Shown: in pieces, positions 1-28,600 of the stretch
Position numbering within the stretch: position 1 is the stretch's first letter
Layout of the letters: each line of letters opens with the position of its first letter
NCBI RefSeq assembly: GCF_009914755.1
Contig: NC_060934.1
DNA: 64,000 nt
Source of the DNA: the human T2T-CHM13v2.0 reference genome, Homo sapiens
Direction: 5' to 3' (one strand)
Position numbers and translations under genes: made by a program
The notes under the pieces: generated by a model
What the model was told of the DNA's origin: nothing
The model's input: only the letters and a program-made list of their open reading frames with translations
Databases searched by the model: none

Positions 1-824
1 GTGAAGAACTACTGAGCAGAAACCAATTGTCCACAGCTGCCAGCCTTGGGCCATCTGGATTACAGAATCATGGACAACACTTAATATTATCCAGGGAAGC
101 CTCTTGGGCAAAACCACATTACGAGTTCAACCTCAGCCGTATGAAGTTCAGGGGAAATGGTGCACTCAGCAACATCAGTGACCTTCCTTTTCTTGCAGAA
201 AACTCTGCCTTTCCAAAAATGGCACTTCAAGCAAAACAAGATGGAAAAAAGGATGTGAGCCATTCATCTCCTGTAGATTTAAAGATACCACAAGTTCGAG
301 GAATGGATCTTTCTTGGGAGTCTCGCACTGGTGATCAGTACAGCTATAGCTCTTTGGTAATGGGTTCACAAACGGAGAGCGCGCTTAGTAAAAAATTAAG
401 GGCTATTCTTCCAAAACAAAGTAGAAAAAGCATGTTAGATGCTGGACCCGATTCTTGGGGCTCAGATGCTGAGCAGTCTACCTCTGGACAGCCATATCCC
501 ACATCGGATCAAGAAGGAGACCCTGGCTCCAAGCAGCCTCGGAAGAAAAGAGGGCGTTACAGACAGTACAACAGTGAGATACTGGAGGAAGCAATCTCAG
601 TGGTTATGAGTGGAAAAATGAGTGTTTCCAAAGCTCAGAGTATTTATGGGATTCCCCACAGTACACTGGAGTACAAAGTAAAGGAGAGGCTGGGCACTTT
701 GAAAAACCCTCCAAAGAAAAAGATGAAATTAATGAGGTCGGAGGGGCCAGATGTTTCTGTAAAGATTGAATTAGATCCCCAGGGAGAGGCAGCACAAAGT
801 GCAAATGAATCAAAAAACGAGTAG
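1..824 (+). CDS. LCOR: LCOR terminal coding exon (5'-truncated by window), C-terminal pipsqueak-type HTH domain
   Basis: Open frame from position 3 (EELLSRNQLSTAAS...) to TAG 822-824. Contains PRKKRGRYRQYNSEILEEAISVVMSGKMSVSKAQSIYGIPHSTLEYKVKER (HTH_psq) and ends ...SANESKNE, as recalled for human LCOR. The TTG 'start' at 27 in the ORF track is not the real start. Confidence 0.97.
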   Translation, partial: EELLSRNQLSTAASLGPSGLQNHGQHLILSREASWAKPHYEFNLSRMKFRGNGALSNISDLPFLAENSAFPKMALQAKQDGKKDVSHSSPVDLKIPQVRGMDLSWESRTGDQYSYSSLVMGSQTESALSKKLRAILPKQSRKSMLDAGPDSWGSDAEQSTSGQPYPTSDQEGDPGSKQPRKKRGRYRQYNSEILEEAISVVMSGKMSVSKAQSIYGIPHSTLEYKVKERLGTLKNPPKKKMKLMRSEGPDVSVKIELDPQGEAAQSANESKNE

Positions 825-3313
825 GAATACTGTAGAGTGCCAATTACTGTACAAACTGGGTGAGCACTACTGCATCATTGTTCAGCTATCATTGCTTGCA
901 CGTAATTTCATTTACTGTGACACTTGCTTCTTTGCAGATTTTGCATTGACTTGTGTGTACAGAGATGAAATGTGCATTCTGAATGTTGCATATTTTAAAT
1001 TTTTCATGTGCAGTATGGCTCGGAATATGTTTGGCCTTTTGCATGTTTCTCTACAAAAGAGAATTGAGTTACCTCACAGAGAACAGATACATGGAAGTGG
1101 ACTCCTTGCCTGTAGAGCCTGCATGCTTTTTTGTTTTTTTTTGTTGTTGTTGTTTTTTCTTAAGTTATATTTGTTTTTACTTTTTAAAAAAGAAGAGGAA
1201 ACAAAGCCCCCTTTTAGAAACTACGTCTGTCATACTGGGAGCTTTATCACTGCAAATTGGAAAGCCATCTTATACAAAATTATTCACATTTTTCATCTAC
1301 GATTCAACTAATCGAAGGATTAAACTAAAGAAAAAACTAAGAAGAACAATGAACCTTTGACTTTGAGAAATTTGGTTATTCACTGACATAATTATTGGGT
1401 CATTTATAGTTACATTTTATAATTTTCTTCTCACTATTAAATTTATTTAAATTAGCAAGCTATTAGTGCTCACCCAGAGGGGAAGGTGGTGGAAAATGTG
1501 CACACACTACCTTCAGAAATGCTTCAGTTAATTACTTTGAACACTACCTTTGCTGTAATTTCATTTGAGATTTTCTAAGGGTAGAATTTGGTCTCACCAA
1601 CAAGTGAGGATATAGCCTTATCTCATGGAGGACGAGCTCCGTATTTACTCAGGAGCAGTCAGGGTACATTACATAAAACAATGGAGGATGCCTCATTTTA
1701 GCAAACTAGGTTTCTTTGTATTCTTCAGTCCTTTTACAGAATTGATGTGCTAACTGAATATCATTGCAGCAACTAGACTAAGATATTCAAGATCTCTTTA
1801 TTGGGGATGGGAGAAATAGGGAAAGAAATGTGTATAAGTAATTATGATATTGCAAAAGTGATACTTAGATTTTACAGCCTCAGTAGTCTGCCCAGTGTCC
1901 ACATTAATGAAGGATCCATGTTTGTAGTGAGAGAAAAAAACCCCAAGGTAACCCGATATGATTTAGGATGCATATCAGTTCTAACAATTCAATCAGAAGT
2001 CAAGCTCATTGGAATTCCTTTTTTAACTGATCCAAATACTAGTAGAAGGGGGAGGGAGAGGTGTTGGGTTTTTTTTTTAAGTTTTTATTTAATTTTGTTG
2101 GTTAGAATTTTTTTCTGTTTTTGGCATCCTACATAATACCCCCCTTCTTGACTTTTTCTGATAATTAGCTGATATTCATGGTTGTTTAGCACACAGTTCA
2201 GGACCTTTGAGATCATGTTTGTATAAGCACTCCTTGAAGAATATCTAAGCTTTTTCTGAGATGGGCTTTTAAAATTATAATAAGGGAAGTTTATTTTCTG
2301 CGGTTTTTGCAAGAATAAGCAAAGCCCATGGAATTTAATTTTTCATTGTGATCAGATTAAAATTACTATTTGTGCAAAACAAATTCCACACCACATGTAC
2401 TGTATATTCTAATCTGCTGAGAAAGGTGGTCAGGCCCTTCTAAATGCTTAACCAAAAACAAACATTATTGGAGTTTCAGTGTAAAATAAAATTAAAATTG
2501 GAGGGTTGGTTAGATTGATTTCAGATGGATACTAACAGTTTGAGGGGAGGTCCAGATATTTCCAAGGCATAAATTCTTGCCTGGAAACTTTGGAGCAATT
2601 AATTAAATTAGGTTAAGTTTTCCCTCAGCAACCTGTGTGTTCAAAGGTTAGGCACACCATTGCTGTTACTAAAATACATGCACTGCTCATTCTTGACATA
2701 GCTTGGGTGTGGGTTCCTCTTGTTTTGGTTATTTTGTGTAGCAGTTTAATCAGTGGATAACTGAGCCTGTTTCCTCTTAGCTTTCTAGACTTCTTAACAG
2801 AAAAAACAGTTTGGGTTCAATAGCATTTTATGATTCTACAATATTTTGTCACCTAGCTGGAAGTTGCAATAAAAATTCCTTATGAAATATATGGTTTTCA
2901 TCTGTAATTGAAGGAAATCATAGAAAGTTTGCTGAAAGCAAAGGGCTAAGCTTATGAAGGAATGCCTCCTTTGTTACACACTCAAGAATTTGTCAGCACA
3001 CAATTAATTGCAGCCATAGTACCTTTTTGCGTAATGTTTGGGATATTCAGTAGCCCAGGATTGCTACAAAAAGGTCCTTTGAGAAAATTAATTTGTGCTT
3101 GCTTTTATCCCCTCTCAGAAAGACATCACTAAAGGCCCATTAAAAATCTGGCCCTAAAAGTTCAACTTTTGTAGAGTTTATTGTTCAGAGAGGTTTAATC
3201 CTATGTGGTAGTCTATATAAGTGATGTATGAGTTGAGTTATGTAAATTTTGTCATTGTAGTGTACATGGAGTGATCATTTTACTAACATAAATATTTTCT
3301 ATGTGTGTTTCAG
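737..3313 (+). other. LCOR: Alternative intron inside the LCOR terminal exon, giving a C-terminus ...KKKMKLMSG*
   Basis: Donor GAG|GTCGGA at 736|737; perfect branch point TACTAAC 3281-3287; acceptor TGTTTCAG| at 3313. The joined sequence ATG AG|T GGA TGA stops at 3318-3320, predicting 406 aa, which matches the short LCOR isoform length as I recall it. Confidence 0.75.
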
Positions 3314-3808
3314 TGGATGACAATCGAGCAGCAGAAGAATGGTGTGCCTACCCTTTAATGCTGCAGTTTAAGAGAACTTGTATTGTGTCATTTCAGATTG
3401 TAGGCTGAGAGTTGTAAATAGTGAAAATTTGAGTACTTCTATTATTTGTTTTGGTTAGAAAGTGAATTTAAAAAACAAACCAAACTCTAAACTTTCTCAG
3501 ATTAAAAGTCCTGAGACCTGAAGATTGTAATATTCATGTCTGTGAAGCTTTTAAACATTACACTTGAGATCAGTCATGACTTGATATTCAGGTAAATTTT
3601 CTTTTCCAAGAAGCTTTTGAATAAGCATATTTCCTCCAAAGGTCTCTCTCTTTCTCTCTCTTTTTTTGAGTGTAGATTATTTTAAAGCACTAATTGCATT
3701 ACATTGGTAACTGCAATATAAAATAGCCATTATTGTTTTGTGAAGCATGGTTGAAATTAGCTAGTGGTCCCTTTTGAATTTCATGAGCCTCTCAAAAAAG
3801 AAAAACTT

Positions 3809-3829
3809 AAAAAAAAAAAAAAAAAAAAA
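3809..3829 (+). repeat. A21 homopolymer in LCOR 3'UTR
   Basis: Direct read; a likely oligo-dT internal priming site. Confidence 0.9.
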
Positions 3830-6800
3830 CAAAAAGCTGCTGGAATATTTCAAAAGATATATATTTTACCTTATTATAGGTTTTGTAAAGTTAGTTTGTA
3901 ATATTCAGGTGCACTTTTAATGTTAAATTTTGTGTTCAGAGTTCCATTATACCATGTATTTCTCGGAGGTGGCTCATCACACGGCTGGTGGCAGTCTTGG
4001 TGCCGCAGTGATTCCTTAATATTTGATTTCTCTCTTGATTTGCCACTATTCTGTATTGGCACTTTCAGTGTAGATATTCTAGTTTGGGGATGTCCTCACA
4101 ATGTGTAATAGAGATTGGTCTATTAGCATGCTTAATTTCTGCTAATCAGAGTTTTGCATGGCCCAAACAACAGTTGACCATTTTTATGGTATGGGAAAGT
4201 GTAGTTCACAACTGTCTTTGTCACGAAAGCCGTTTTTCCTCACATTTTCCAGTAGGCAGATAACATTACTTAAATTATTAATATATAACACTCTTGGAAC
4301 TATTGATAGGAAATAATGTATTTAAAATAATTTTTTGCATTTTCAGAGACCTTGATGTTATAGGGTAGATAAGCTATGGCACTATAAAATCAAAAACACT
4401 AATTCTGTGGAAGGATATCTAGTTGGTATTTTTATCTTTAGCTTTCTCATTTCTGAGACAGCATAGTCATCCAGCTTGATGGTAATGTAGTATATTACTT
4501 TGTTCAGTGGGCTTATAAGTGACTCTGAATTATGTTTGTGATGAGCTATACACTTTTTTTCTGTTCCCCAAATACCATGAAGGACAAGGTCACTCTTTCA
4601 GGAAAAATAATTTATATTTGTGTATAATACTTTTTAATATTAAGTTTGTTGTTCTGAAGTTTAGATGTTGCTTGATAAACCTTTGCTGCAGCAGATCATG
4701 AATATGAGTAAGGCTTTGTGTGATAATAGGGGTCCTTATGTGAAGTTAATTACTGTTCAGTTCTGGTGAGCAAGCTCAACAAGTGTGAAGTGTGTATTAG
4801 CTTTATTTGGTACACTTTTACTTTACAATATCGAAGTGCTTTTAGAACTCTGGTTATCTTATATAAACCATTACCTCAACCAATTGGCATTTCTTTTCCC
4901 CAACATTTACCTTAGCTATAATATGAGCTATGTGGGATCAGATGGTAAAACTATAAAAGGCACAATGAGAAGTTTAGTTCCCAAGTTTTGGAGAGAACTC
5001 TAAATTAGACTAAAAACAACTACCTGTTAACACCAATATCATAACTACCTTCTGTCGTTAGGCAGTACATAGCAACCTTTGAGCTGCTAGTGAGCTATCT
5101 GTTCTCCCCCTACCCCCAAGTAAGCACACAGTGCCAGGCCTGGTTCTAAGCCTTTGTGATTCTCTTACATCTCATTGACCCATAATAGTGAAGCATGGAT
5201 TCATTTATTTTCATAAGACAAATTGAGTCAGCTCGATGTCAGAAGTTGAAAATATTTTGAGTAGTTTAACAGTTATATGAGAGATTGGCATCATTTTCTT
5301 TAACAGCTTTTATCTTTGTAGATTTCCTTTTGAGACATGTATTTTTGCTTTTATAATCCTTTCATTAAATGCCAGAGGTTGTTTTCATATTAATCACTCT
5401 TTTCTGTATATTCAGGTTGCTGTCATTGGTGATAGAATATGGCAATAGACAGAATTGTGCTCCACTTTATGTTTTTTAGGAGATATTGAAAGTTATAGGT
5501 TAAATTTTGGCCTTCTTGAAGATATCAAAGATTGTTTTCCTTGTTACCTTTAATTAGAATTTGGTCTTCATTAATGCTTTGGTCAGGCTAGCATTACTAA
5601 AAACTTGATGGCTTCAGCAGAACAGCCCGTTTAGGAGACTATTAAGCTATCTAGGGATTTTTTTTCAAATTAATTGCTTTCAAAATCTGAAAAGGAAAAA
5701 AGTATAATTGTGGTACAAAGAAGACAGATCTCCAGGCTCTTTCTTCTCAGTTTATTTTGGTTTAATTCTGTACTGGAGACTTGAATAGGATTTGTGAACA
5801 TGGTGATGGAAAGAAAAATAGAGGACATTATTTGTGTACCCTCATTCCTGAATAATCTTGCAGTCACCTTTTAAAGAAGCAGACATTAGCCCTGTAACAC
5901 AACACTGTAGCTATAAACTCTAAGTGTTAGGAAGGAGATTGGGGTGGGGAGGGTGGAGTAGGATGGAAAAAGCATGTAGACTTCTGAGAAGAGGCTAAAA
6001 ATTCTGCCCTATAATACTAAAAATGAGTCACAAGATAATGTGGTGAAGTTAGGCCATCTTGATTTGATAGAAAAATCTTTTACATTGTTTAAAAATGAGA
6101 ATCGAGGCTAATTAATGTTGATTTGACAATAGAACATGAGCTAATTCTGCAACCGTTTGGGGGGTAATTTTATGGTTTCCAGTTCATTTAGAGCTGTATC
6201 AAGAAAAGCTAAAAAGCAAGCACTTTTAGTTAATCATAGATTTATTGGATATAGCAAATATTATTATAATATTTAATCTCTATTATTTGAATGTGGAAAT
6301 GAACTCTTTTACCCCATCTTGAACTGTCATTGAACATGCTCAAGATGATCAACACTGGAAATGACCCTACACACATACCAAAAAAATCTAAAGCAGTAAG
6401 ACATATTTGAAGATCCATACCTCTTAAACTTTTTAGATTTGTCTTGGGAAAGAATTTATGAACCTGTAACCAGTATTAGTGCAGTCTTGGGTTCCTTGTT
6501 CTGCATAATTGCACCCTTTCTCAGGTATGTCCTGACAACATAAATTTTAAAATAATCTCATTAGAGATTAGATTCTCAGTGGATAGTGTGTAAGGGGACT
6601 AGGGGTGGGGGGTTGGGGGTAGTTGGACACAGGACACTGACACAGTAGAGCAGGGATTTTTAACAGTCAATAGCCAAATAGAATTTCAATCTAGAATATT
6701 TTTACCCCCTCAGAATGAGTGAAACAACTTCTATTATTTGGTGTACCCGGTGCTACACTCCTAAAAGTCTTTTTTTTTTTTCATCCAGGTGACGTTTTTT

Positions 6801-9317
6801 ATTTTTCCTGCTTGGTGGTGGAAGGTTATATAGTAAACTTCACTGTCATTAAGAAAGCGCTTGTCCAAAATGTTTAAAGTACTAGAAAAGGGATAATTCA
6901 GCACTTTTTCTGTTACAACACTAAAGTCTTAATTTATCTTCAGAGTCTTAGGTACTGTAAGTTTTTGGATGATTATTTAAAAATATAAAACATACTACAT
7001 AATATGGGGTCAGATCACATTTATATAAATAATTCTTATTTTAAAAAAGACAATAACATTTTGTACCTTTCTAGCAATTCCAAGTGATTGCCTCATTTTC
7101 TCTTGTTAAGCATTTCAAGCTTAAGAATTTGGAATTTGAGAGAAGGTGAGGGGGAAAATTCCCTAAAATAAAAATTTGTTTCAAACCATTTTAGAAAAAT
7201 AAATCACTAGGAAAATAGGTAGGGATTCTCTCCCCCTTTAAGTCTTCAGGGAATGAGCAGTATTTAGAATCTTTGGCTGAAATTCAAGCCTTTTTACTTT
7301 GTAAATTTTTAATATTAATTCACTGACATGCTTTTTACACCAGAGGACTGAAAATGGATCTTAATGTTTTTAAGTTGTGGAAGGGTATATTTCTAAAATG
7401 AGGGGGGATGATTAACTAGGTTAGTATTACCAGCATTAGTAAGTTTAAGGAATTTTAGTATGTAATAGCAAAGTGTTTGATTAAAAGTCTAATCCTATAT
7501 TACTAGTCAAAATTAGTTACATTCTGATCTAGGAAAGATAATAGTCATTGGATATTGATATGCTGTGCTGTCAGAAAACCAGACTAAGATAGAAACCTTT
7601 ATCTGACTCCCACATGTTGCTTGTTGTGATGGGATGTATACTTTACAGCAGCTTATTGCTGCTTTGAAAAAAAATGTATAAACTATACATTTGGAGTGTT
7701 TGCATATAATTCTTTATAACCTCCACTTAAAGCTGTCAGACATTGGTATTTTATCAGTCCACATTGTTGAATAAAACTAATGTTCTTAGGAATCCAGCTT
7801 GTACACACTGTTTAAAAACCCTCAGGGACAGTTTACACACTCTTCTCACTCAATTCAGGTACTTTGATGCTATTCTTAAACCTAACAGTGACTTGTATTT
7901 TTCTGTTTTGCTTTTATTTCAACGTGCTGGTAGCACATCTGATGAATGTCAACTTAAAAAACTCAGTTCAGGTATCCAGGTATAACTCAGCCAAACAGAT
8001 TTTAAAGCTGCATATAACTCTCCAGCACATGGTGCCTCACACTCTTATAGTGGCATTCTATATATTCAGTTATTACTACTGAGCAGATAATATGGGGGTT
8101 CCTGTTAACAGTGTATTTTTTAAAAAAAGCGCATAAATGTATAGCCAGCACACTACACACACACACACAAACATGCACAGTTAAACTATATATTTTTAAA
8201 TGCCACTAATAGCCAGCACAACTAAAACAAAAGACATTCCTAACTGCTCTGTAAGCTGTTAACAGATGCAGTTCCTTCTTGATGTGGCTCTTGCTTCTTC
8301 ACGATAACTACTACTAAATTCAAGCACTGGTCCTTGGGTGTCTGACCTCTACATTCTAGTTTATGCAATGTCTTTAGAGAATTTTGTGCACTGGCCACTG
8401 TGATGGAACCATTGGGCCAGGAGTGCTTTGAGTTTATCAGTAGTGATTCTGCCAAAGTTGGTGTTGTAACATGAGTATGTAAAATGTCAAAAAAATTAGC
8501 AGAGGTCTAGGTCTGCATATCAGCAGACAGTTTTGTCCGTGTATTTTGTAGCCTTGAAGTTCTCAGTGACAAGTTTTTTCTGATGCGAAGTTCTAATTCC
8601 AGTGTTTTAGTCCTTTGCATCTTTAATGTTAAGACTTGCCTCTTTAAAATTGCTTTTGTTTTCTGCAGTACTATCTGTGGTTAACAAAATAGATTATTTC
8701 TCTGCTTTAATATTTGATATCTTACATCTAAAATAAATTCTCTCCACATATAAAACCCATAGCCTTTGGAGATATGGAAAATGGTATCTTTCAGATTTCT
8801 AGAAGTTCAAGTGTCATACAACAAAACAGGAACCCCCTTTACTCTTATGGACCTCATTTCAATATACTGTTTACAGTTTGATGGAATTGTATAATTTAAT
8901 ATTTCTCTTGTACTGTAGTTTATATTTATTTACAGATTTTTTTGTACTGTGTGATTTGAACTTTTTGTTCCTTGCTATGATCAATGTTTATGTAGTAGAG
9001 CACTTATGATCACAAATTAAGTTTTTTGGTTTGATTGCACTACATTAAATTTTTTAATGCAGTTCTGATTTTTGACTGGACTAAAACTGTGTCTTAATGT
9101 ATGTGATGAGTACTTAAAATTTTAATCCATGTGGTCCCCCCCCTTTTTTTTTTTTTTGCATTGTATGTCAAAAGCGCTTGTTCTTTCGTGCATGTGTAAG
9201 ATTTAATGGTTCCATTGTATTATTTGACCATGACATTTTGGAGAAACATTCCCAGCTGTAATGTTGTGTATGGTAGTTCTCACTGGATGCTAGAGTTTTC
9301 AAAACCACTATTCTTCT

Positions 9318-9323
9318 AATAAA
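9318..9323 (+). terminator. LCOR: Distal polyadenylation signal of the LCOR (HTH) isoform
   Basis: AATAAA with several upstream TGTA motifs and downstream U/GU-rich sequence (TTTTGTTGTG...TGTTTTT). Confidence 0.75.
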
Positions 9324-9794
9324 TTTTGTTGTGAAAAACTGTTTTTAAAGCTTGGTTTCTACTTCCTAAGATTTTAATGCTTTTTGAAAAATTCAAAAAA
9401 TGGGTAAAAGTTGGATTGTACTCCAACTGTAAATACACATGGTACAAAGTGATTTTTTTAATGATAAATTCTTTCTAGATGCAATCTTTTAGATAAAGTT
9501 GCTGCTGTGAGATTCTGCTTTCATATTCAGGTGCAATATTGCGTTGTAAACTCAGTGTCTTTACTAATTTGATACCTCGGCGCTCAGATTACCTCAGTTT
9601 TCTTCATTGGATTATTCATTTTAAAAAATGTATTCAGCTAAACAAGATACAGTAATGTTTTCATAATACCGTCTTCTGTCTTGACTTAGTTTTTTATAAT
9701 TTTCTTAAGAGTATAAAACTTAATGCCGGGATTCCTTGTCAGAAAATAATAGTGACTATTTTTTGTTTGCTTTTGTCTTGAGGCATAAGTATAA

Positions 9795-10206
<412 letters not shown>

Positions 10207-10279
10207 TGCTAGTGGTGTTTTATATTTAAAGATGATGCTATTGTTAATTGGTCTAGTTTATCTTTTAATAGTTTTTGTC

Positions 10280-10593
<314 letters not shown>

Positions 10594-11006
10594 CTAGCTG
10601 TTTCTGCCTTTGGTCTGATGTTTATAAAATAGGAATTTATATTAGTACTACAGACTTGTTCTGTTGGCTTTATTTGTTCCCCTTAATTATGCCACATACT
10701 TAATCAAGATTTTTTAAGAAAGCTAATTATTATTTTGCTGTAAGTTCCAAAGCCATAACTAACTTGTTTATGGTCATTTCCTGCCGTTACTCATTATAAA
10801 CTGGGAGCCAGGTCAGTAATAAGATTACAGTTTAGCATCTCATAAATGAATTTGCTTTATTTTAGTGATCCTATCTTCAAATTGATATTCAGCTCTTCAG
10901 TTGTTATAAAGGCCCTATTTAAAGAAAGGACTTTTTCTTTTAAACTGGAATTTTCTCTGATTCTGCTGATATTTTGGAAACTAATTCAGGGGGCCCTATG
11001 TCTTAA

Positions 11007-11412
<406 letters not shown>

Positions 11413-11637
11413 AGGACTCTTAACAAACACTATTCAAATATAACAGCATATGCTCGGGACATGTGGTATTAGGTTTTGTAGCTGAAATGAGTGAATAATT
11501 TTTTTAATAGAAAGTGTTAAGTAATATAGTAGATAAGAGTTCTTGTTATATTTCACTTTATTTGCTTCTAAAAGGTAAGCATTTTAACACAGAATTTTAT
11601 TTATCAGATTCTTAACAGAATGTTGAACTTCCGTTGT

Positions 11638-11921
11638 TTGACAGGATCTCATTCTTATCTCCCAGGTTGGAGTGCAGTGGCATGATCACGGTTCACTGCA
11701 GCCTCGACCTGCTGGGCTTACGTGATCCTCCCACCTCAGCCTCCTGAGTAGCTGGAACTGCAGGCACATGCTGCCATGCCTGGCTAATTTTACAATTTTT
11801 TGTGGAGACAAGGTTTCAGTACGTTGCCCTGGCTGGTCTCGAACTCCTGAGCACAAGTGATTTCTCCCACTTTGGCTTCCCTAAGTGCTAGGATTATAGG
11901 CATGAGCCATCATGCCTGGCC
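11638..11921 (-). mobile_element. AluJ-like SINE
   Basis: GGCATGATCACGGTTCACTGCAGCCTCGACC, typical of AluJ. Confidence 0.85.
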
Positions 11922-14616: not shown

Positions 14617-14976
<360 letters not shown>

Positions 14977-15001
14977 TTTAACAACTATTAAATTGACTTG
15001 A

Positions 15002-16239: not shown

Positions 16240-16740
16240 ATAATTTATTTGAATAGTCCATTTGTGACTGACTTAATGCCTGCCATGAGTTGAGCCCCAA
16301 GCTTTAGGCACTGAGGCTACCAAATTGGAAAGGACAAAGTCCTTGACCTAGAGGAGGTTCACAGTCCATGGAGAAGACGGTTAGGTCAATAGTTACAAAG
16401 CAGCATAAGTACTGTTTAACAAAAGATACAAGCAGACTGTGAGAGTAGAGGAGAAACTACCTAATGCAGCACCAGGGACAGGGTGCTGAGGAGGGTTGTG
16501 TAAGCAGTGGGGAGCTTATAGGGGTTTCATGCAGGAAAGTAACCAGATGAGATTTGGGCTTTAGGAAGTTGGCAATTCTGGATAATGTGACGCTGACTCT
16601 AAAATGAGAAACGAGGGGCAGAGATATACAATATAGCATTTTCCAAAGAAAGTCAACCCTTGTAGTTAAAACTGGATGGTGTATTGGAGGCAAGGGAAGT
16701 GATGAAACTAATAATAAAAATTGAGGTAGAATATCTAGCA
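16240..16740 (-). mobile_element. Degenerate L2 LINE fragment
   Basis: TAGGCACTGAGG...AAAGTCCTTGACCTAGAGGAGGTTCACAGTCCATGGAGAAGAC resembles the L2 3' region. Boundaries approximate. Confidence 0.5.
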
Positions 16741-19700
16741 TAGAGTATCTAAATAACAGGCCTTATAACTCTTACGTCTGCATGTGTGCCTACACATTCA
16801 GTTACATTTTGTCTTCCAAGATTCCTGAGTAAAAACTTGAACGTACAGATGATTTTATTAATACTTAGTTCAGTTCTACCCCCAGAACATCTCCAGCTGT
16901 AGCCTTGAGTGTTTCTAGAGAGGGGTGGGGTGGGGAATAGTTATAAAGGACTATTAATTCTTATAGCACCCCAGAGAGGATGATAAATATAAAATACCTT
17001 GCTTATCCTCACACTTTAAAAATACTTAAAAAAATAAAAATTTAGTGTTACTGCTCACCTTATGAGTATCAATGAGGTAAAGGGGTAAAATATTAAAAAT
17101 ATTTTAAAAATATTTTTAAATGTATGTCATCCAGTCCAAAATCTCACATCTCTCACTGCCTCTGAACCCTCCCTTTTTTTAAAAAATTAACACCATATAT
17201 ACGTTAGATTTTGCATAGTCTTACCAAGGATGATGAAGTTAGAAACAAAAATCAATTTGGTAGGGGAAAAAAACCACAGAAGTAGTTTGTCAGAGATGTC
17301 TGTTTTCTGAGGCCATCACATTTCCAGAGAGCAAATGGAGGCATTGACCTGCTGTGCTTAATGACCCTTGCTCTGACTTCCTGCTCTCCAAGTAACTTTC
17401 TGATTGTATTTTGGCATCCTGGGTACATTTGTCTGTAGGGTAAAAATATGTTAAAGAATGAACATGAGAATCTTCTTGATAGTTATATTTTTTATTGTAA
17501 TTTAATAAATTTGACAATCTAGTTAAAATGAAGAAAAATAGGAGATACAATATATAAGCCTTAAAGTGCTTCTGTGATATTTAGGAGATCTACTCTGTCC
17601 CTTATCTAGGGATATTAAGCCTTAAGATGCAGAAAGGTAGCAAACTATGGCTTCATGCCCAGTAAGCTCCCTCTGAAACACCTATTTTTCCCCCAGTTTC
17701 GATTATTAGTTCATTATTTTTGAACCTTTATTCTGCTCTTTTAGTGAATGTGGTTAAGAACATGGTAAACTTAGCAATTACAAAGGGATTGCATGCCCTT
17801 TGCTTTAGATCAGTACCTCCACACACTTGAACAAATACCATGTTGCCATTAGCAATGGTGTCACTGAGGCTGGGACTTCTATAGGGGTGAAGAGATACAT
17901 CCTGGTTTCAACCCCTCACCATTCTCCATGATTCTGATCTCTGGGAAAGGGGATAATTTAACCCCAATTTTGAAAATTGCTTTTTCTGTATCTAGGTTCT
18001 ATCTACATCCAAATTTAGATAATTTGGATTTCAACCACCTGGAAATCACATATTTAACAGCCTGTGATTTTTATGAACTTCATTTCTCACTTTCCTGTAT
18101 TCACTTTTGCCTACCCTTTCACTGCTTCTCCTAAGCCAGTTCTGTGGAAAGAAAAGTTTGTTCAGGGGTTTTAAAGTACACCTATGGCTTTCTAAAGAGT
18201 GGAAAAATAAAATTTCCACACCCCATGCCAACCTTCTCCATTATGTCTACACAACTTTGTCATAACCTTGGAATATCCTTATATTCAGGTGTGGAGGATA
18301 CAACAGATGTGAAATAGCCAAGAGTAGATAAATTTCTCCGTGTAGAGCAAGGACTTGTCAGCAGATTTTTTCAGGCCCTCCTGACTATACTTATACTTTC
18401 TGTGCTTAAAGGAGAAGAAGTGAGTAAACTAGGGGACACAATTTCAGATTATTGTCTGGCAAAAAATATAACTTGTTATGCCTTGAAGAGGGGGTGAGGA
18501 AGCATTTTTGTTTTATTTAAAGAGTCAAGCCATAGTAATTTACAACCCTTGACTATAGTCAGCTCTCTAAAGCTTGCTTTCCCCTTCTGTTTTCCTGGGA
18601 CTCCCTGTTTCTGCTATTAAGATTAGCTCCTATCCAAACATCATTCTCTGTGGCTATTGATCTTTTTTCAGTCAAGAAGAATGTATTTTGGTCATCAGTG
18701 ATATTGCCTTTGCTCATCAAGCAGTTATTGGTAGTTAGAGAGTAAATACCTAAATTCATCACTCCTAAATTCTAGACTCTCAGACTTGTCACTTCACCTC
18801 CATGCCAAATCTCTTCTCCACTTGATCTTTAACTCTAAGATAACATAAGCATTGCCCACCCACCAGTATTAACCACAGGAATGCTTTCCATCAGAAATTA
18901 AATGTTGTGTTATTGACTTGGTAGGCAAGTTAAGCTGTGTCTAACCTATGATGTAGATAAATATTGAGTAAATCATTAAAGATGGGGTTATGAAACAACA
19001 ATCATTCTTAAACTGTAGCTTTTAAAGGGTTTATGAATATTATCTTATCCTTTTACCACACCCTTAACAATTGGGCATGGAACTGAAGATAGGAAGACAG
19101 TGGTCAAGGTCATGCACACCGTTTCTCACCAAGGAGATAAACTGAAAACTAATTTAAGTATTGGAAATCCAGTTTTTTCTTTTCCTTTATGAGAAGTGGG
19201 AGTACTTCCTCCCATTAACCAATCCCTAGGATCTTACTGTGCTTTAGTGGTGGTTTTCAGGTATTTCTGATTAACGAATAATTCACTTGACTATTACAGA
19301 GTCCTCTTGATGAGCAGAAGCAGCATGAACTAGCATGAGCTCAAGTCATTTCAACATCTGTTATGAATTACTGTTCTTATAAAGACCTTATTTAGTCAGA
19401 TGTGAAGGACATCGTATGATACAGACTATAATCTGCACCGAACTAAAACAGTGCTTCCTGGACCTTAGGCCAAGTTGAGGAAATGGTTTGCAGAACAGAA
19501 AATTGCCTCTCTCTGGTTTCCCTACTAGCTGCCCAACAATATTCTAAGTTAATGCAAGTGCTATATTTAGGGTTTGTTACAAATCTAAGGTCTCGGAAAA
19601 ATTGAATAACTAGAAGCAAAAGTAAAGACAAGCTGTTTAAAACAGGAAAAACTGGCTAACACCTATTTTTTAACATAAAAAAATAGTAATAGAATTAAAT

Positions 19701-19772
19701 ATCAGGAAGTTGAGATTCATTTTTAAAATATTCAAATGATAAAGTGAAATTCATCTAAATTTAGGTGCTATT

Positions 19773-20078
19773 GGCCGGGTGCTGTGGCTCACACCTGTAA
19801 TCCCAGCACTTTGGGAAGCCGAGGCTGGTGGATCACCTGAGGTCAGGCGCTTAAGACCAGCCTGGCCAACAGGGTGTAAAACCCCATCGCTAGTAAAAAT
19901 ACAAAAATTAGCTGGGTGTGGTGGCACATGCCTGTAATCCCAGGTACTTGGGGGGCTGAGGCCCAAGAATTGCTTGAACCCGGGAGGTGGCGGTTGCCGT
20001 GAGCCAAGATTGTGTCACTGCACTCCAGCCTGGGCGACAGAGGGAGACTCTATCTCAAAATAAAATAATAAAATAAAT
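19773..20078 (+). mobile_element. AluS-like SINE
   Basis: GGCCGGGTGCTGTGGCTC...GGATCACCTGAGGTCAGG; (AAAAT)n tail. Confidence 0.9.
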
Positions 20079-20596
20079 ACTTATGTGCTATTAAGAAAAA
20101 TTCCAGAAAAAAAAGTAGGAAGCTGGATAACTTTGAGGCACAGCCAAAACTGATTTTATTGCTATATTGTAAAGTTAGCTGTTATAACAGGGCCTTTTAA
20201 TGACACCTGGACAAAGGTTAGTATTCATGTGAAGGCCTCTCAGATCGAAGGGAAGCTGTTGGTGGGCTCATCATGCCTATGTGTCTAGTTGCCTACCAGA
20301 CATCTCAGGTTCAGAATCATGTAAATATCTTAATATGTATAGTACAGAGCTCTTCAGAAACATACACAGCCTAACAACCACCAGCCACTATCTTTGTTAC
20401 CTTTATTCCTATCTCAGTAAATGGTGCTGCCCAGGAAGAAAACTCAGGAAGCATCCTAGATGTCCCTTTTCCCTCTCCTCTTTTTTGCTAAGAGAAAACA
20501 GGAAAACATGAAACATGGTCCCTGCACTCAAGTAGCTTACATCTGCTTGGGAAGCTAAGACAAAAACAAGGCAAAGTCAATACAAGATAAAAATTA

Positions 20597-20935
<339 letters not shown>

Positions 20936-22458
20936 TTAGGATTTTCAGGAAAGAATGCAATCAAACCAGGTGGGGTAGTTTTGAGCTGGCCAGTGACAGG
21001 CTGACAAGAATACCCTGGTACCTGCTCTTACACGTTGTCCCTGATCCTTTTTATGAGGAAAACATACAAATGATCTTTTTTGTTGATGCCATTTTCTCTG
21101 GAGGTTGCCATTTGCAGTTCTGTGGAAAGAAACGTTTATTTTCTTTTCATTCTCCTGAGCTTCCACAAACTACTGCTCTAAGTGTCCCTTAAGGTTGGTG
21201 TAGCCTGTGTCAGTCTCTCTGATGCTACTGTTTTTTAGTATCCACATGCTGTATTACATTGTTCCAGGTTAGAGTTCAGTGGATCCTGAACATGTTTCTT
21301 TAGCATGCCTTAGTGGTGGCATGGAAGACACCACCGCCTCTTGCCATGAGGTTGTGAAATACATTCCTACCTACCTGTGGCTGTCTAATGGGGACTAGCT
21401 TGAGCCATATGGCCATGGTTGTTGCTTCAGGGCTGGCTGCATGGCCCTTTGGAAGACCTTACATTAGTTAAGGGTAATGAAGATATTGGGGTGCTATTAA
21501 GTTATTGAAACATGGGACAGCAGCAGATTAGAGTCTCACAATCATGAAGGAAGTTAGATAATACCTGTGAACTAAATTATTACTCATTTATTCTGTGTGA
21601 GCATCACTTTAGAGGAAAGTGCTTCTTCAGCTTTCTTCATAGCACTCTGTCTTCTTACTGCATGCATACCTTGATGTCATTCAACCCCAGGCATCTCATT
21701 AATTCCAAGCACTAAAGCTTGCTTCCAGAACCCAGCTATAGGCATGAAGCGGTACCTAGAAAATTTTTGCGAAGAGTTAGGTAATGATTGTGCTTCTTGA
21801 ATTAGGAAGAACCGTTTATCTCTTCAGTTTTTCTACAATTAGATGCCATAATATTTCTTCACCCTCTTCACTGACCTTTGTCATCCTTTTTTGTGTATTG
21901 CCAAAACGCACTTGGAGTATGTTCTTTGATGCATTGAAAAGGCACCCACTTATTTATAGTCACCTACCTTGGAAACATCAGGAACATATCAGGAACTAAG
22001 GAATAAAGGCTTTTGAGCAACAGAAGTTGTGGTTAGAAAATTCATGTACTTACCCCTAAAACTATTCCTCAAGCTTTCATTCAGAGCCTATTTATTTTTA
22101 CTTAAAGTACCATTTTGGCACTTGGGATATGGCTTCTCAGCTAGTGAGTAAAATTCTCTACTAAAGGTAGAAGTAGGACTGCTAAGATCAGCCACTGTTT
22201 GGAAGCCAGTAAGAAAGAAGATTTAATACAATACAGGCCACCACTGTAGTTTTTAGGAAGTCAGACTTAGTTAATTGAGTTGCCCCTCAAACTATTAATC
22301 TAATTCAGTCTAGTATAATAAAAATAATAGCCAGACTTCAGTAATAGTCCATATGGTAATGATCCCAAGTATCAGGAAGAATAAATTATGTTCCAAGATA
22401 ATATAATTTTTTAAGACTTCCATCAAAAAAAATTTGAATCTTTAAATATTTGCTTTAA

Positions 22459-22730
<272 letters not shown>

Positions 22731-23719
22731 TGATTTTTTACTGAAGCACTTTTAATTTGATTCACTGACAGTAGTGGTAGCTGATATTTGTATAAACTTT
22801 GTAGGTTTTTCCTTGGAGAATTTCCAAGTGGTAGATGGGGCAGGTACTCTACTAAGACCCAAAGTGGTTAAATGTTTTGGACAAGGTCACATAACTAGTA
22901 AGCAGCAGGACTACTTACTGATTCTCCATCTCCACTCTCGTACTGTAGCCTGTAACACATATTGTGCTGTTGCTTTCATCTGGTAGACATAGTGACAAAG
23001 TTCTTCCTAAAGGGGTCTGGGGTCCTTCAGCAGGGGCCTCCTCCTGCCTGTTCCATGAGCAGAAAAGTCTGCAGCTGCATGAGGATTCTGTTGAGCTCCT
23101 TTGTACATCTCATTGAGTCGGAAAGTTGGAAATGTCCTAACAATCACTCATCCAAGGGTGTCACTGATGTCTTGCCTGTTCCAAAGGAAGAAGATAATAT
23201 TTGCCATTCTTGCAAAGCAGGAGGAGCTTATTCCATATGCTGCCTTTTTAAAACTTTTACTAAGTCCACTTTACAGATAGAAAAGTACTCAATAGGTTTT
23301 TTCTAGCTGCTTTCGTCTTTTCTTTCCTTTGGTACATTTTGTCCCCATCGCCAGTATGTACTTCAGAGTTCACCGTACTTGTGTACCTTTTGTAATACTT
23401 CTATAATAATATTTTTTCCTAGAGTATTCACAATTCAGGTATCATTGGAAAGTATGAGGTAGGCATTTTCTATGACATTTCTAGTCTTTCAAATCCATGG
23501 TCTAATATAGGCCCTTTCAGAAACCCATGGCACTACCGACTAAAACTGCTTTCTTGCTAGTTGTGAAAACAAAAACACAGTGTAACCTTTTCTCTGGTAA
23601 AGCAGTTTAGGTTAAGCAACAGATTTGACTAATTTCTTGGTTTTGTATTTAGACATGTTCAGCAACCTTTTCACTACTTGATCTTAAAAATCTCCCTAAG
23701 CCCTGAACAGAAACTGAAA

Positions 23720-23950
23720 TTGTCTGAGCACCTGCCCTTTTGTGCTTTGTGCTTTATGTTTTATGTATGTTATCTAATATCTCACAACAATCCTTTGAGA
23801 TACTGACATTCAGTCCCAACTTACAGATGAGGAAACCAAGGTTCAGAGAGATGACGTAACTTGCCTAAGATCCTGTAGATAGTAAATGTCAGAGCCAAAG
23901 GTGGAATCTCGGATCTCCATATTCCACAGCCTATGCTCTTTTCCACTGTG
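23720..23950 (-). mobile_element. MIR SINE
   Basis: CCCAACTTACAGATGAGGAAACCAAGGTTCAGAGAG...AACTTGCCTAAGATC. Confidence 0.7.
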
Positions 23951-24740
23951 ACCCCACTGCTCAGAAGCCAGTGGAGGGTGGGAAGGTAGGAGGTGATGTG
24001 GGTTGTCTAGGGTCAGCCTTCCTGTAAAAGTGCCTCATGACTGAGACAGAAAAATCAAAGACTGAAGAAAAGAATTAGCCAGAAGATATTATCAAACATC
24101 TGTTCACACATTTAAAGCTGCCTCTGTGTGCTGCTGTATTTCATGGCAAGTCACATAATAGTCTCCTGAGGAATTATAATCCATACAGAGAGAGAGGGAG
24201 TTTAAAAAATTATATAAAACTCCAGGAAATTGGAGCACACCGACTGCATGGGTTCAGTACAACCCAGACATCCAGAAGCACAAAGCAGCTAGTGAAAGGC
24301 CTGGCTGTCTAAGCAGGTATTGCCTGTGGCATGTCTTGAGTCTAGCATCACCCTTTCACACAGTCCCCACTGTCTGCGCTAAGCTCTAAGGATTTGTCCT
24401 GGGTGACTTACTTAAATGGTGGAAAGGGGTTTTTAACATAGAATGATTTCTTGTGGTTGATTGTAAAAGGTGTATTGAAGATCTCGGAGAATGTAGCAAG
24501 TGGGCCTTGAATAAAGATACAATACTACTACCTTGCAGTGACAGGCCTGTACAGTTTAGTGTGGCTTCATAGCTATCTCCTCACTTAAGAGACTGCGAAT
24601 TGGGACTTGCTTGTCATCTCACCATTTAAAGTAGGTGAAGTTATTGATTTCTATTCCTTTATACTCCCAGGAAAGGGTAGCAGGATTCCTGCATTAGCAT
24701 GACCAATTGGTCATGCTGAGAAACTATCTTAAAACTGTTA

Positions 24741-25082
<342 letters not shown>

Positions 25083-25450
25083 CTAAACCCAAGATTTGTA
25101 CTGTAGTGCACCTCAATTCTTGTCAGTGTTGTGGACTTATAAACCCACGATTATTTAACAGGAATACCCAGACCTAAAATAAAGTATATGTTGACCAACC
25201 AGAGTTAATAGTGTGGTCAAAATTTTAGCTTTTTTGAAAAAAATGTATTTGCAGTATTTCTTCTCTTTAAGATAAAAATGATTTTTGAATGATTACTTTT
25301 AACGTATGAAGAATATCGTCACTAAAATTTGAGGCTATAACAGGCTGACCTTATAATTAGGTAAATAATTCACATTTATTGAATCAAAAGTATATGAGCA
25401 GACTTAGAAGCAGTTTTCGCCAAAGTACCCACCCTCTTTATAATACAGAT

Positions 25451-25590
25451 AGCCAGGCAAGGTGGCTTACACCTGTAATCCCAGCACTTTGGGAGGCTGA
25501 GGCAGGAGGATCTCTTTAGGCCAGGAGTTCGAGATCAGCCTGGCCAACATAGCGAGACCCTGTATCTACAAAAAATAAATAAATAATAAA
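25451..25590 (+). mobile_element. Alu left monomer (FLAM-like) ~90 nt upstream of the PALI1 acceptor
   Basis: Single arm ending ACCCTGTATCTACAAAAAATAAATAAAT. Confidence 0.8.
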
Positions 25591-25646
25591 ATGAATAACG
25601 TTGGGTGAATTTTATAATGTAAAAATGGTTCTTTGGTAAATGACAA

Positions 25647-25678
25647 TACTAATTCCTTCTTTCTCTTTCTCTGTCTAG
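25647..25678 (+). promoter_or_regulatory. LCOR: Branch point, polypyrimidine tract and 3' splice site of the PALI1-specific exon
   Basis: TACTAAT (25647-25653), TTCCTTCTTTCTCTTTCTCTGTCT, AG at 25677-25678. Confidence 0.9.
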
Positions 25679-28600
25679 TGAGAACTCAACAGAGGCAAAA
25701 GCAGTAGATTCTAACAATCAGTCGAAGTCCCCACTGGAGAAATTTATGGTCAAACTGTGTACTCATCATCAAAAGCAATTCATTCGTGTTCTGAACGACC
25801 TGTACACTGAATCTCAACCAGGCACTGAGGACCTGCAGCCTTCTGATTCGGGAGCAATGGATGTATCCACTTGCAATGCTGGCTGTGCCCAGCTCAGCAC
25901 CAAACATAAGGAAAAAGATGCTCTGTGTCTCGATATGAAGTCTTCTGCTTCTGTAGATTTGTTCGTAGACTCGTCAGACTCTCACAGCCCTCTACACTTG
26001 ACGGAACAGACCCCGAAGAAGCCTCCTCCTGAGATAAACCCTGTAGATGGAAGAGAGAATGCCTTGACTGTTGTCCAGAAAGATTCCTCTGAACTTCCAA
26101 CCACTAAATCGAATTCTATTAATAGCAGTTCAGTGGATAGTTTCACTCCGGGATACCTCACTGCATCTAATTGTTCCTCAGTGAACTTCCACCACATCCC
26201 TAAAATCTTGGAGGGGCAGACCACTGGACAAGAGCAAGACACAAATGTGAACATATGTGAGGATGGTAAAGACCATATGCAGAGTTCAGCTTTAGTAGAA
26301 AGTCTAATTACAGTAAAAATGGCAGCTGAGAATAGTGAGGAAGGCAATACCTGTATTATTCCTCAAAGAAATTTGTTCAAAGCTTTATCAGAAGAGGCTT
26401 GGAACTCAGGGTTTATGGGGAACTCATCTAGAACTGCTGACAAAGAGAATACTTTACAGTGTCCAAAAACACCTTTGCGCCAGGATTTAGAGGCAAATGA
26501 ACAAGATGCAAGGCCAAAGCAAGAGAACCATCTTCACTCTCTGGGAAGAAATAAGGTGGGTTACCATTTACATCCCAGTGATAAGGGCCAGTTTGATCAT
26601 TCCAAAGATGGTTGGTTAGGCCCCGGCCCTATGCCAGCTGTACACAAAGCGGCAAATGGACACTCAAGAACCAAGATGATATCAACCTCCATCAAGACAG
26701 CTCGGAAAAGTAAAAGGGCATCAGGGCTGAGGATAAATGATTATGATAACCAGTGTGATGTTGTTTATATCAGTCAACCAATAACAGAATGCCACTTTGA
26801 GAATCAAAAATCAATATTATCTTCTCGGAAAACAGCCAGAAAGAGTACTCGAGGATACTTTTTCAATGGTGACTGTTGTGAGCTGCCAACTGTTCGTACA
26901 CTGGCCAGAAATTTACACTCCCAGGAAAAAGCAAGCTGCTCAGCATTGGCATCAGAGGCAGTTTTCACTCCTAAGCAGACCCTTACAATTCCAGCCCCTA
27001 GACATACAGTAGATGTGCAGCTTCCCAGAGAAGACAACCCTGAAGAACCTAGCAAGGAAATCACCTCTCACGAGGAAGGAGGTGGAGACGTTTCACCTCG
27101 AAAAGAACCTCAAGAGCCTGAGGTTTGCCCCACAAAGATTAAGCCGAACCTGAGCAGCTCCCCTAGGTCAGAGGAAACGACAGCCTCCAGCCTGGTGTGG
27201 CCTCTCCCTGCTCACCTTCCTGAAGAGGACCTGCCAGAAGGTGGCTCCACAGTCTCAGCTCCCACAGCAAGTGGGATGTCTTCTCCTGAACACAACCAAC
27301 CACCAGTTGCACTGTTGGATACGGAGGAGATGAGTGTACCCCAGGACTGTCACCTCCTTCCCTCCACTGAAAGCTTTTCCGGGGGAGTCAGTGAAGATGT
27401 CATTTCTAGGCCTCATTCTCCTCCTGAAATAGTCAGTAGAGAAGAAAGTCCTCAGTGCTCAGAAAATCAGAGTTCCCCAATGGGCTTGGAGCCCCCCATG
27501 AGTCTGGGAAAGGCTGAGGACAACCAAAGCATCAGTGCTGAGGTTGAGTCTGGAGACACCCAGGAGCTAAATGTCGACCCACTCTTGAAGGAAAGCAGCA
27601 CTTTTACTGATGAAAACCCCAGTGAAACTGAGGAAAGTGAGGCAGCAGGTGGTATAGGAAAATTAGAGGGAGAGGACGGTGATGTAAAATGCCTGTCAGA
27701 AAAAGACACGTATGATACAAGCATTGACTCACTCGAAGAGAATTTGGACAAGAAGAAAAAAGGTAAAAAATTCCCTGAGGCCTCTGATAGGTGCCTAAGA
27801 AGTCAACTTTCGGATTCTTCCTCTGCTGACAGATGCCTAAGAAATCAGAGTTCAGATTCTTCCTCAGCTTGTCTTGAAATCAAAGTTCCTAAAAATCCTA
27901 GTGCAAAACGTTCAAAAAAAGAAGGGCACCCTGGTGGGACAACACCTAAGGGCCTTCTACCTGACAGTTTCCACACGGAAACTCTGGAGGACACAGAAAA
28001 GCCAAGTGTCAATGAACGCCCCTCTGAGAAAGATGCTGAGCAGGAGGGCGAAGGCGGGGGGATCATCACCAGGCAGACTTTGAAAAACATGCTGGACAAA
28101 GAAGTCAAGGAGTTACGAGGAGAGATTTTCCCCAGCAGGGACCCCATAACCACAGCTGGACAGCCACTGCCTGGAGAGAGATTGGAAATCTATGTTCAGT
28201 CTAAAATGGATGAGAAGAATGCTCATATCCCCTCAGAAAGTATTGCTTGTAAGAGGGACCCAGAACAGGCAAAAGAAGAGCCAGGGCATATTCCCACACA
28301 GCATGTGGAGGAGGCTGTGAATGAGGTAGACAACGAAAACACCCAGCAGAAAGATGATGAGAGTGATGCCCCATGCAGCTCTCTTGGGTTGTCGAGTAGT
28401 GGAAGTGGTGATGCTGCTAGGGCACCAAAATCGGTGCCAAGGCCTAAAAGATTGACCTCTTCAACCTACAACCTAAGACACGCTCATTCTCTGGGCTCCT
28501 TGGATGCTTCAAAAGTGACTTCAGAAAAGGAAGCTGCACAAGTAAACCCCATAATGCCAAAGGAAAATGGAGCTTCAGAGAGTGGAGACCCCCTAGATGA

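What the first reader, a model, noticed from the sequence alone, without database searches (positions are those of the whole stretch)
736..25679. Phase-matched splice sites allow an in-frame LCOR-HTH + PALI1-PIP chimera (a possible DNA-binding PRC2.1 recruiter)
Seen: the internal donor at 736|737 (ATG AG|GTCGGA) lies just after the HTH and leaves 2 nt of a codon. The PALI1 acceptor (TAG|T GAG AAC) supplies exactly 1 nt. Joining them reads ...KKKMKLM-S-ENSTEAK... open to 30020, about 1851 aa by standard LCOR numbering (404+1+1446). Established: LCOR carries the HTH and PALI1 the PRC2-binding PIP domain, and they are described as mutually exclusive last exons. Inference: a third isoform could put a DNA-binding HTH and the PIP domain on one protein. 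I know of no description of it. Caveats: the donor is weak (C at +3, G at +4), phase match alone has a 1-in-3 chance, and it must outcompete the 3313 acceptor and the 9318 poly(A) signal.
Basis: partly seen in the sequence, partly recalled or inferred. Interest (0 to 1): 0.8.

Follow-up and report, generated by a model that had tools for sequence, protein, structure and literature searches.

The report
Unsupported LCOR HTH–PALI1 splice chimera
Two known LCOR splice sites could in principle be joined in frame to make a DNA-binding PALI1, but the frame match follows from how the gene is built and nothing found here shows that the joint is ever made.

Summary
The sequence facts hold. The donor at 736|737 (GAG|GTCGGA) and the acceptor at 25678|25679 (CTAG|T) exist. 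Joining them would read 404+1+1446 = 1851 aa, ending at the stop at 30018-30020. Both sites are already annotated. The 736 donor makes the published 406-aa LCoR2 isoform by pairing with 3314. The 25679 acceptor is the PALI1 exon.

The phase match carries no information. The HTH exon and the PALI1 exon are alternative acceptors for the same upstream donor, and exon -145..736 is 882 nt (294 codons). In window 1-824, 11 of 35 GTs are in phase.

I found no evidence that 736->25679 is used:
- 0 of 120 listed PALI1 protein clusters (all named ones mammalian) carry the HTH.
- A census of long HTH-bearing proteins found 14 of 46 with both domains, all automated non-human models with differing junctions. 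None of the 9 LCOR-type models uses a 736-like joint.
- Published PRC2 pull-downs from human cells found LCOR N-terminal and C10orf12 peptides but none from the LCOR C-terminus.
- No paper found describes the isoform.

Junction reads could not be queried. The most likely verdict is splicing noise at best. A second in-phase GT overlaps the LCOR stop codon (820|821).

The parts
1..736 (+). Window part of the LCOR HTH exon. The exon begins at window -145, outside the window. With the 736 donor it is 882 nt, which is 294 codons.
   Evidence: hub annotation (exon -145-736).
576..704 (+). HTH_psq DNA-binding domain (PF05225)
   Evidence: E 2.5e-15, residues 192-234 of window:3-821.
734..742 (+). Internal 5' splice site GAG|GTCGGA. 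It is weak but used; it leaves 2 nt (AG) of a codon.
   Evidence: 3.4 bits on a recalled matrix, against 7.3-12.2 for 10 SLIT1 donors; the LCoR2 qPCR primer spans 736|3314.
3289..3319 (+). LCoR2 acceptor CAG|T at 3313|3314. The joint reads Ser-Gly-stop.
   Evidence: pyrimidine fraction 0.65. Hub annotation (exon 3314-9338).
818..826 (+). Second in-phase GT, CGA|GTAGGA (exon end 820), overlapping the LCOR stop codon TAG at 822-824
   Evidence: 3.1 bits. The equivalent place is used in the sawfish model.
9318..9338 (+). LCOR poly(A) signal AATAAA and the annotated transcript end
   Evidence: hub annotation.
25654..25679 (+). PALI1 acceptor: a pyrimidine tract, then CTAG|T. It supplies 1 nt of a codon.
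   Evidence: pyrimidine fraction 0.95, against a mean of 0.785 for 10 SLIT1 acceptors.
25679..30020 (+). Coding part of the PALI1 (C10orf12) terminal exon: 1446 full codons plus the stop
   Evidence: hub annotation.
28518..29096 (+). PRC2-interacting region, PALI1 residues 1058-1250, placed by arithmetic from the 1557-aa numbering
   Evidence: Residue numbers come from passages of PMC8319299. The coordinates are my inference.
28611..30014 (+). DUF4553 (PF15090)
   Evidence: E 3.6e-202, residues 978-1445 of the exon translation.

Best explanation
The finding pairs two real, already annotated splice sites of the LCOR gene. One is the internal donor at 736, which normally pairs with the acceptor at 3314 to give the 406-aa LCoR2. 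The other is the acceptor of the PALI1 terminal exon at 25679, which normally pairs with the exon-7 donor upstream of the window. They are frame-compatible for a structural reason. The HTH exon and the PALI1 exon are alternative acceptors for the same upstream donor, so both start with one base of a split codon. The exon from -145 to 736 happens to be 882 nt, a multiple of three. That is a one-in-three event and says nothing about use. In pre-mRNAs that include the HTH exon, the weak 736 donor first meets the 3314 acceptor and then the LCOR poly(A) site. Pre-mRNAs that read on to 25679 are mostly those that skipped the HTH exon. A 736->25679 joint is therefore, most likely, absent or rare splicing noise and not a functional third isoform. 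Shown: the sites, the frames, the domains, use of the 736 donor in LCoR2, and the absence of the chimera from mammalian gene models. Inferred: the kinetic argument and the 'noise' verdict.
For: Sites and frames. Exon length 882 nt. Share of GTs in phase, 11 of 35. The 736 donor scores 3.4 bits on a recalled matrix against 7.3-12.2 for 10 annotated SLIT1 donors in the same window. The 736 donor is used with 3314 (LCoR2, passages of PMC5562849). Between 737 and 25678 lie 26 AATAAA and 18 ATTAAA hexamers, including the annotated one at 9318. Among the 120 best clusters homologous to the PALI1 exon, 0 carry PF05225. Of those 120, 114 are named and all mammalian, and 6 are unnamed. 0 of the 120 contain the HTH core motif, and 95 of the 103 with the exon-start anchor show the canonical exon-7 context. 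Among 46 proteins of 1096-3488 aa that match the HTH exon, 14 have both domains. All 14 are automated models from snakes, a toad, a sawfish (flagged low quality), teleosts, and two mammalian LCORL models. 13 of the 14 are single-member clusters. 0 of the 9 LCOR-type models use a 736-like joint, and their junctions differ, with extra unmatched stretches in 3 of them. [quoted passage not shown] The papers read treat the HTH and the PRC2-interacting part as exclusive.
Against: No RNA-seq junction database, long-read set or human transcript catalogue beyond the hub's RefSeq rows could be queried, so use of the joint was never tested directly. The 736 donor is demonstrably functional despite its low score. 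The 25679 acceptor is very strong (pyrimidine fraction 0.95). PALI1 pre-mRNAs prove that the LCOR poly(A) sites can be read through, so some 736->25679 product is mechanistically plausible. Automated pipelines in 14 clusters did join an HTH exon to a PALI exon, and one of them (Sousa chinensis LCORL) did so from an internal donor just after the HTH. The protein database is clustered at 90% identity and shows representatives only, so a human chimera hidden inside a cluster cannot be ruled out. The AP-MS evidence is from one cell line, and its supplementary peptide figure was not seen.
Confidence: 0.7

Rival explanations
1. One reading: 736->25679 is used at a low but regulated level in some cell type. 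It gives an 1851-aa protein that carries both the HTH_psq domain and the PRC2-interacting region, and it tethers PRC2.1 to LCOR DNA sites.
For: The joint is in frame and open to 30020. The donor is functional. The acceptor is strong. The stop lies in the last exon, so nonsense-mediated decay is not expected (inference). One automated LCORL model (Sousa chinensis, P0250) uses an internal donor 7 residues after PPKKK.
Against: 0 of 120 PALI1 clusters carry the HTH. 0 of 9 LCOR-type chimeric models use this joint. LCOR C-terminus peptides were missing from PRC2 purifications. No paper was found. The donor is weak, a nearer acceptor exists, and the intron of about 24.9 kb holds 44 poly(A) hexamers.
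Confidence: 0.1
2. If an HTH+PALI1 protein exists, it is made from the other in-phase GT, at 820|821 (CGA|GTAGGA), which overlaps the LCOR stop codon. Splicing there removes the stop, keeps the whole LCOR tail, and makes the split codon GA+T (Asp).
For:: the site is in phase and scores 3.1 bits, about the same as the 736 donor. All 9 LCOR-type chimeric models keep the LCOR tail up to its last codon or nearly so. In the sawfish model the final Glu of ordinary shark and ray LCOR is replaced by Asp, as a GA|GT joint would give. The human LCORL paralogue has the same layout: the stop is preceded by G (CCTGT|GTAGAT), the PALI2 acceptor is TTAG|T, and the Galemys model uses that joint.
Against: The site is not annotated as a donor in the hub's RefSeq rows. 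The same negative evidence applies as for the 736 joint. About one ORF in four ends with G before the stop and so has such a GT by chance (inference). The snake models appear to use a different base (the joint codon is Tyr), so the site is not conserved at base level. The models come from pipelines that tend to chain all coding exons.
Confidence: 0.06
3. The chimeric gene models reflect a real long HTH+PALI isoform in non-mammalian vertebrates, for instance a separate teleost paralogue, that mammals have lost or silenced. The human phase match would then be a relic of it.
For: Five teleost models from different submitters share a similar layout. Their tail after the HTH differs from ordinary teleost LCOR, which suggests a distinct gene. 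Both human paralogues keep the same entry phase and a GT at the stop.
Against: Each teleost chimera listed is a single-member cluster, while ordinary LCOR clusters listed hold up to 340 members. Junctions vary, and 3 of 9 contain stretches with no counterpart in relatives. No transcript evidence was seen. No vertebrate genome other than the window's own could be read with these tools.
Confidence: 0.1

Closest known systems
LCoR2 (LCOR isoform 2, 406 aa; 736->3314)
   Same: It uses the same donor at 736 and keeps the HTH. The split codon also becomes AGT (Ser).
   Different: It pairs with the acceptor 2.6 kb downstream and stops after Ser-Gly. It is annotated and was measured by junction qPCR in 35 breast cancer lines (passages of PMC5562849).
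PALI1 (LCOR isoform 3 / LCOR-CRA_b, 1557 aa)
   Same: It has the same acceptor at 25679, the same 1446-codon exon with the PRC2-interacting region and DUF4553, and the same entry phase.
   Different: It is joined from exon 7, so the split codon is Gly and the upstream context is QGN-G, and the HTH exon is skipped. It is experimentally established.
PALI2 / LCORL long isoform
   Same: It is the paralogous locus with the same plan: an HTH exon with its own stop, then a giant PALI exon whose acceptor supplies one T.
   Different: In human the PALI2 exon lies only about 5.5 kb after the HTH exon. A figure legend in PMC12448305 calls the HTH unique to LCORL and the PIP domain specific to PALI2.
Automated HTH+DUF4553 gene models (e.g. 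Candoia aspera P0013, Spea bombifrons P0019, Pristis pectinata P0243, Galemys LCORL P0251)
   Same: They put HTH_psq and DUF4553 in one predicted protein.
   Different: None is human. None of the LCOR-type models uses the 736-like joint. Their junctions are heterogeneous, and no transcript support was seen.
DNA-binding PRC2 accessory subunits (PCL proteins, JARID2, AEBP2)
   Same: The proposed chimera would work like these, as an accessory subunit that adds a DNA-binding module to PRC2 (review passages).
   Different: Those are established proteins. PALI1 itself already raises the DNA affinity of PRC2 without sequence selectivity through residues 1058-1329, so an HTH is not needed for DNA contact.

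Membership tests
Functional 5' splice site (LCoR2 donor) | GT at +1/+2 at an annotated exon end | tested here: met
   (GAG|GTCGGA); the hub annotation lists exon -145-736.
Functional 5' splice site (LCoR2 donor) | Transcript evidence that the site is used | tested here: met
   Passages of PMC5562849: a junction primer across 736|3314 and qPCR in 35 cell lines. This shows use with 3314 only.
PALI1 terminal exon | An AG acceptor with a pyrimidine tract, a long open frame, and DUF4553 | tested here: met
HTH_psq domain protein (LCOR / Mblk-1 / E93 family) | A Pfam PF05225 match above the gathering score | tested here: met
   56.4 bits against a cut-off of 20.4.
Frame-preserving cassette exon between exon 7 and the PALI1 exon | Exon length is a multiple of 3 and the flanking phases are compatible | tested here: met
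   882 nt. The exon starts with 1 nt and ends with 2 nt, and the PALI1 exon starts with 1 nt.
Frame-preserving cassette exon between exon 7 and the PALI1 exon | A 736->25679 junction seen in transcripts | not testable with these tools
   No RNA-seq junction or long-read resource was on hand. The hub's RefSeq rows list 736 only with 3314.
Frame-preserving cassette exon between exon 7 and the PALI1 exon | The included form is present in gene models of related species | tested here: not met
   0 of 120 listed PALI1 clusters carry PF05225 or the HTH motif. The caveat is that only representatives of 90% clusters are seen.
PRC2.1 accessory subunit carrying the LCOR HTH | LCOR HTH/C-terminal peptides co-purify with PRC2 | tested here: not met
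   This comes from the literature, not a computation. Hauri et al. report that LCOR C-terminus peptides were missing from PRC2 purifications in HEK293 (passages). The supplementary figure was not seen.

The most novel reading that the evidence does not exclude
A minor LCOR isoform includes the HTH exon as an internal exon, through the 736 donor or the stop-overlapping 820 donor, and continues into the PALI1 exon. The result would be a protein of about 1850-1880 aa that couples a sequence-reading HTH_psq domain to the PRC2-interacting region. The same layout in LCORL, and the HTH+DUF4553 models in fish, amphibians and reptiles, would then mark this as an old vertebrate design and not an accident.
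Probability: 0.08. Interest if true: 0.6.

Novelty: already known. Interest (0 to 1): 0.18.

Why it matters
How PRC2.1 finds its targets is an open question, and PALI1 is reported to bind DNA without sequence preference. A PALI1 form carrying the LCOR HTH would offer a sequence-directed route. The evidence here gives no reason to think such a form exists in mammals. What is present is two known splice sites whose frames agree by a one-in-three coincidence. The result saves a bench follow-up from being over-motivated. It also leaves one cheap RT-PCR or junction-database query that settles both candidate joints.

Tried and rejected
2. Conway et al. 2018 (Mol Cell), the primary PALI1 paper, is not held. 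Everything about it comes from other papers' passages.
3. For PMC13733772 only 1,856 characters are held, and the terms did not occur.
4. Searches for 'LCOR-C10orf12' and for 'LCOR' with 'intronic polyadenylation' each returned 0 papers.
5. I considered that the GT overlapping the stop codon is a conserved donor. I rejected this as unproven. The snake models appear to splice one base later (the joint codon is Tyr), the toad model does not fit either position, and no non-human vertebrate DNA could be read.
6. I considered the long mammalian PALI1 models of 1806-1993 aa as hidden chimeras. I rejected this because none holds the HTH motif; their extra length lies elsewhere.
7. Vipera latastei (P0244) and Apodemus speciosus (P0236) join pieces of the HTH exon to the PALI1 exon from other cryptic donors and lose the HTH. 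I read these as annotation artefacts.
8. The donor scores use a position matrix recalled from memory, not MaxEntScan. They are calibrated only against 10 SLIT1 donors in the window.
Full report
**What is in the sequence**

Bases 734-742 read GAG|GTCGGA, with the exon end at 736. The LCOR frame has codons starting at positions divisible by three. ATG is therefore 732-734, AG at 735-736 opens a codon, and the LCOR stop TAG is at 822-824. Bases 25670-25679 read TCTGTCTAG|T. From 25680 the frame is open for 1446 codons, to the stop at 30018-30020.

The competing acceptor is CAG|T at 3313|3314, and AATAAA lies at 9318. Pfam places HTH_psq at window 576-704 and DUF4553 at 28611-30014. By the published numbering, PALI1 residues 1058-1250 (passages of PMC8319299) fall at about 28518-29096; that placement is my arithmetic.

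**Why the frames agree**

The window's own genome is held, so I read the 5' end of the HTH exon. The acceptor TTAG|G lies at window -145, and the exon starts with one base of a split codon. The exon from -145 to 736 is thus 882 nt, or 294 codons.

The HTH exon and the PALI1 exon are alternative acceptors for the same exon-7 donor, so both must begin with one base. Any donor in the HTH exon that leaves two bases is then in frame with 25679. In window 1-824, 11 of 35 GT dinucleotides do so, which is the one-in-three expectation. The phase match is real but carries no information about use.

**Both sites are already known**

The hub's RefSeq rows list exon -145-736 and exon 3314-9338. Passages of PMC5562849 describe LCoR2, a 406-aa protein measured with a primer that spans 736|3314 in 35 breast cancer lines. 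So the donor works.

It is nonetheless weak. It scores 3.4 bits on a position matrix that I recalled from memory, against 7.3-12.2 bits (mean 9.6) for the 10 annotated SLIT1 donors in the same window. It ranks seventh of the 35 GTs.

The 25679 acceptor is strong, with a pyrimidine fraction of 0.95 against 0.65 for 3314 and a mean of 0.785 for 10 SLIT1 acceptors. The would-be intron of about 24.9 kb holds 26 AATAAA and 18 ATTAAA hexamers.

**Is the joint ever made? Gene models**

The protein database includes vertebrate annotation.

- With the PALI1 exon as query, 335 proteins passed and the best 120 were listed. Of these, 114 are named, all mammals, and 6 are unnamed.
- 0 of the 120 carry PF05225.
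- A script found the HTH core motif in 0 of the 120.
- 95 of the 103 that hold the exon-start anchor have the canonical exon-7 context.
- With the HTH exon as query among longer proteins, 2 of the 120 listed (of 488 passing) had both domains.

A census restricted to proteins of 1096-3488 aa found 46 hits, of which 14 carry both PF15090 and PF05225. Nine are LCOR-type: two snakes, a toad, a sawfish flagged low quality, and five teleosts. Five are LCORL-type, including the mammals Sousa chinensis and Galemys pyrenaicus. 13 of the 14 are single-member clusters.

I inspected their junctions.

- 0 of the 9 LCOR-type models use a joint like 736. All keep the LCOR tail up to or near its last codon.
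- 3 of the 9 insert stretches with no counterpart in relatives.
- Two further models (Vipera, Apodemus) splice from other cryptic sites and lose the HTH.
- Only the Sousa LCORL model leaves from an internal donor just after the HTH.

This heterogeneity fits pipelines that chain all coding exons into one model. It does not fit one conserved splice. One caveat applies: the database shows representatives of 90% clusters, so a hidden member cannot be excluded.

**Is the joint ever made? Proteins and papers**

I did not see the supplementary figure.

Other passages describe the two products as alternatives:

- PMC12223765 describes PALI1 as exon 8 skipping with exon 9 inclusion.
- PMC8864842 says only the PALI1 region binds PRC2.
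- PMC12669776 says the splice-form binds PRC2 but canonical LCOR does not.
- PMC12448305 says, for the paralogue, that the HTH is unique to LCORL and the PIP domain specific to PALI2.

One review table lists a helix-turn-helix domain under PALI1/PALI2 (PMC8489530). I read that as conflation with LCOR, not as a report of the isoform.

Six full-text searches found no description of an HTH+PIP isoform. Conway et al. 2018 is not held.

A second in-phase GT sits at 820|821 (CGA|GTAGGA), overlapping the stop codon TAG at 822-824. It scores 3.1 bits. Splicing there would remove the stop and keep the whole LCOR tail.

The sawfish model changes the final Glu of ordinary shark and ray LCOR to Asp, as a GA|GT joint followed by T or C would. 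The snake models instead show Tyr after an intact tail, which suggests a joint one base later.

Human LCORL has the same plan:

- Its HTH exon ends CCTGT|GTAGAT, so its stop also follows a G.
- Its PALI2 exon starts TTAG|T about 5.5 kb downstream.
- The Galemys and Sousa models correspond exactly to joints from the stop-overlapping GT and from an internal TGG|GTTATA.

About one ORF in four ends in G before its stop, so this is suggestive at most.

**Mechanism and verdict**

Once the HTH exon is included, its weak donor first meets the 3314 acceptor and then the LCOR poly(A) site. Transcripts that reach 25679 are mainly those that skipped the exon. This part is inference.

Some 736->25679 or 820->25679 product is plausible at noise level, because the donor works, the acceptor is strong and the poly(A) sites can be read through. 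Nothing indicates a regulated isoform, and two indirect lines argue against an abundant one in mammals. My confidences are:

- About 0.7 that there is no functional chimera.
- About 0.06 for the 820 variant.
- About 0.1 that non-mammalian models reflect a real long form.

The components are already known, and the proposed isoform remains an untested hypothesis. A junction-database query or one RT-PCR would settle it.

Noticed in passing
window 818-826: A GT overlapping the LCOR stop codon (CGA|GTAGGA, exon end 820) is in the same phase as the 736 donor and scores about the same. It would join the complete LCOR ORF to the PALI1 exon, with Asp at the joint.
   Followed up: partly
L002 (own genome C4, minus strand) 1432-1500 and L003 6343: The human LCORL paralogue has the same plan. 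Its HTH exon stop is preceded by G (CCTGT|GTAGAT), and there is an internal GT after PDTG. The PALI2 giant exon acceptor TTAG|T also supplies one T and lies only about 5.5 kb downstream.
   Followed up: partly
proteins P0245-P0249: Five teleost models that carry HTH plus DUF4553 have a post-HTH tail unlike ordinary teleost LCOR. They may come from a separate teleost paralogue whose short and long forms are not annotated apart.
   Followed up: no
proteins P0003, P0004 and P0122-P0129: Many mammalian LCOR and PALI1 models are about 140-160 aa longer at the N-terminus (about 575-596 aa and about 1695-1716 aa) than the human 433-aa and 1557-aa forms. Two clusters with hidden sources (491 and 695 aa) match the window's HTH exon at 99% identity. 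The extra part lies upstream of the window.
   Followed up: no
PMC8489530, table of PRC2 subunits: [quoted passage not shown] The primary descriptions read here place the HTH only in LCOR/LCORL.
   Followed up: partly
window 25448-25628: A repeat whose sequence looks Alu-like to me, with an A-rich tail that includes three AATAAA hexamers at 25574-25590, ends about 50 nt before the PALI1 acceptor. The hub table lists 25448-25628 as masked, without a family name.
   Followed up: no
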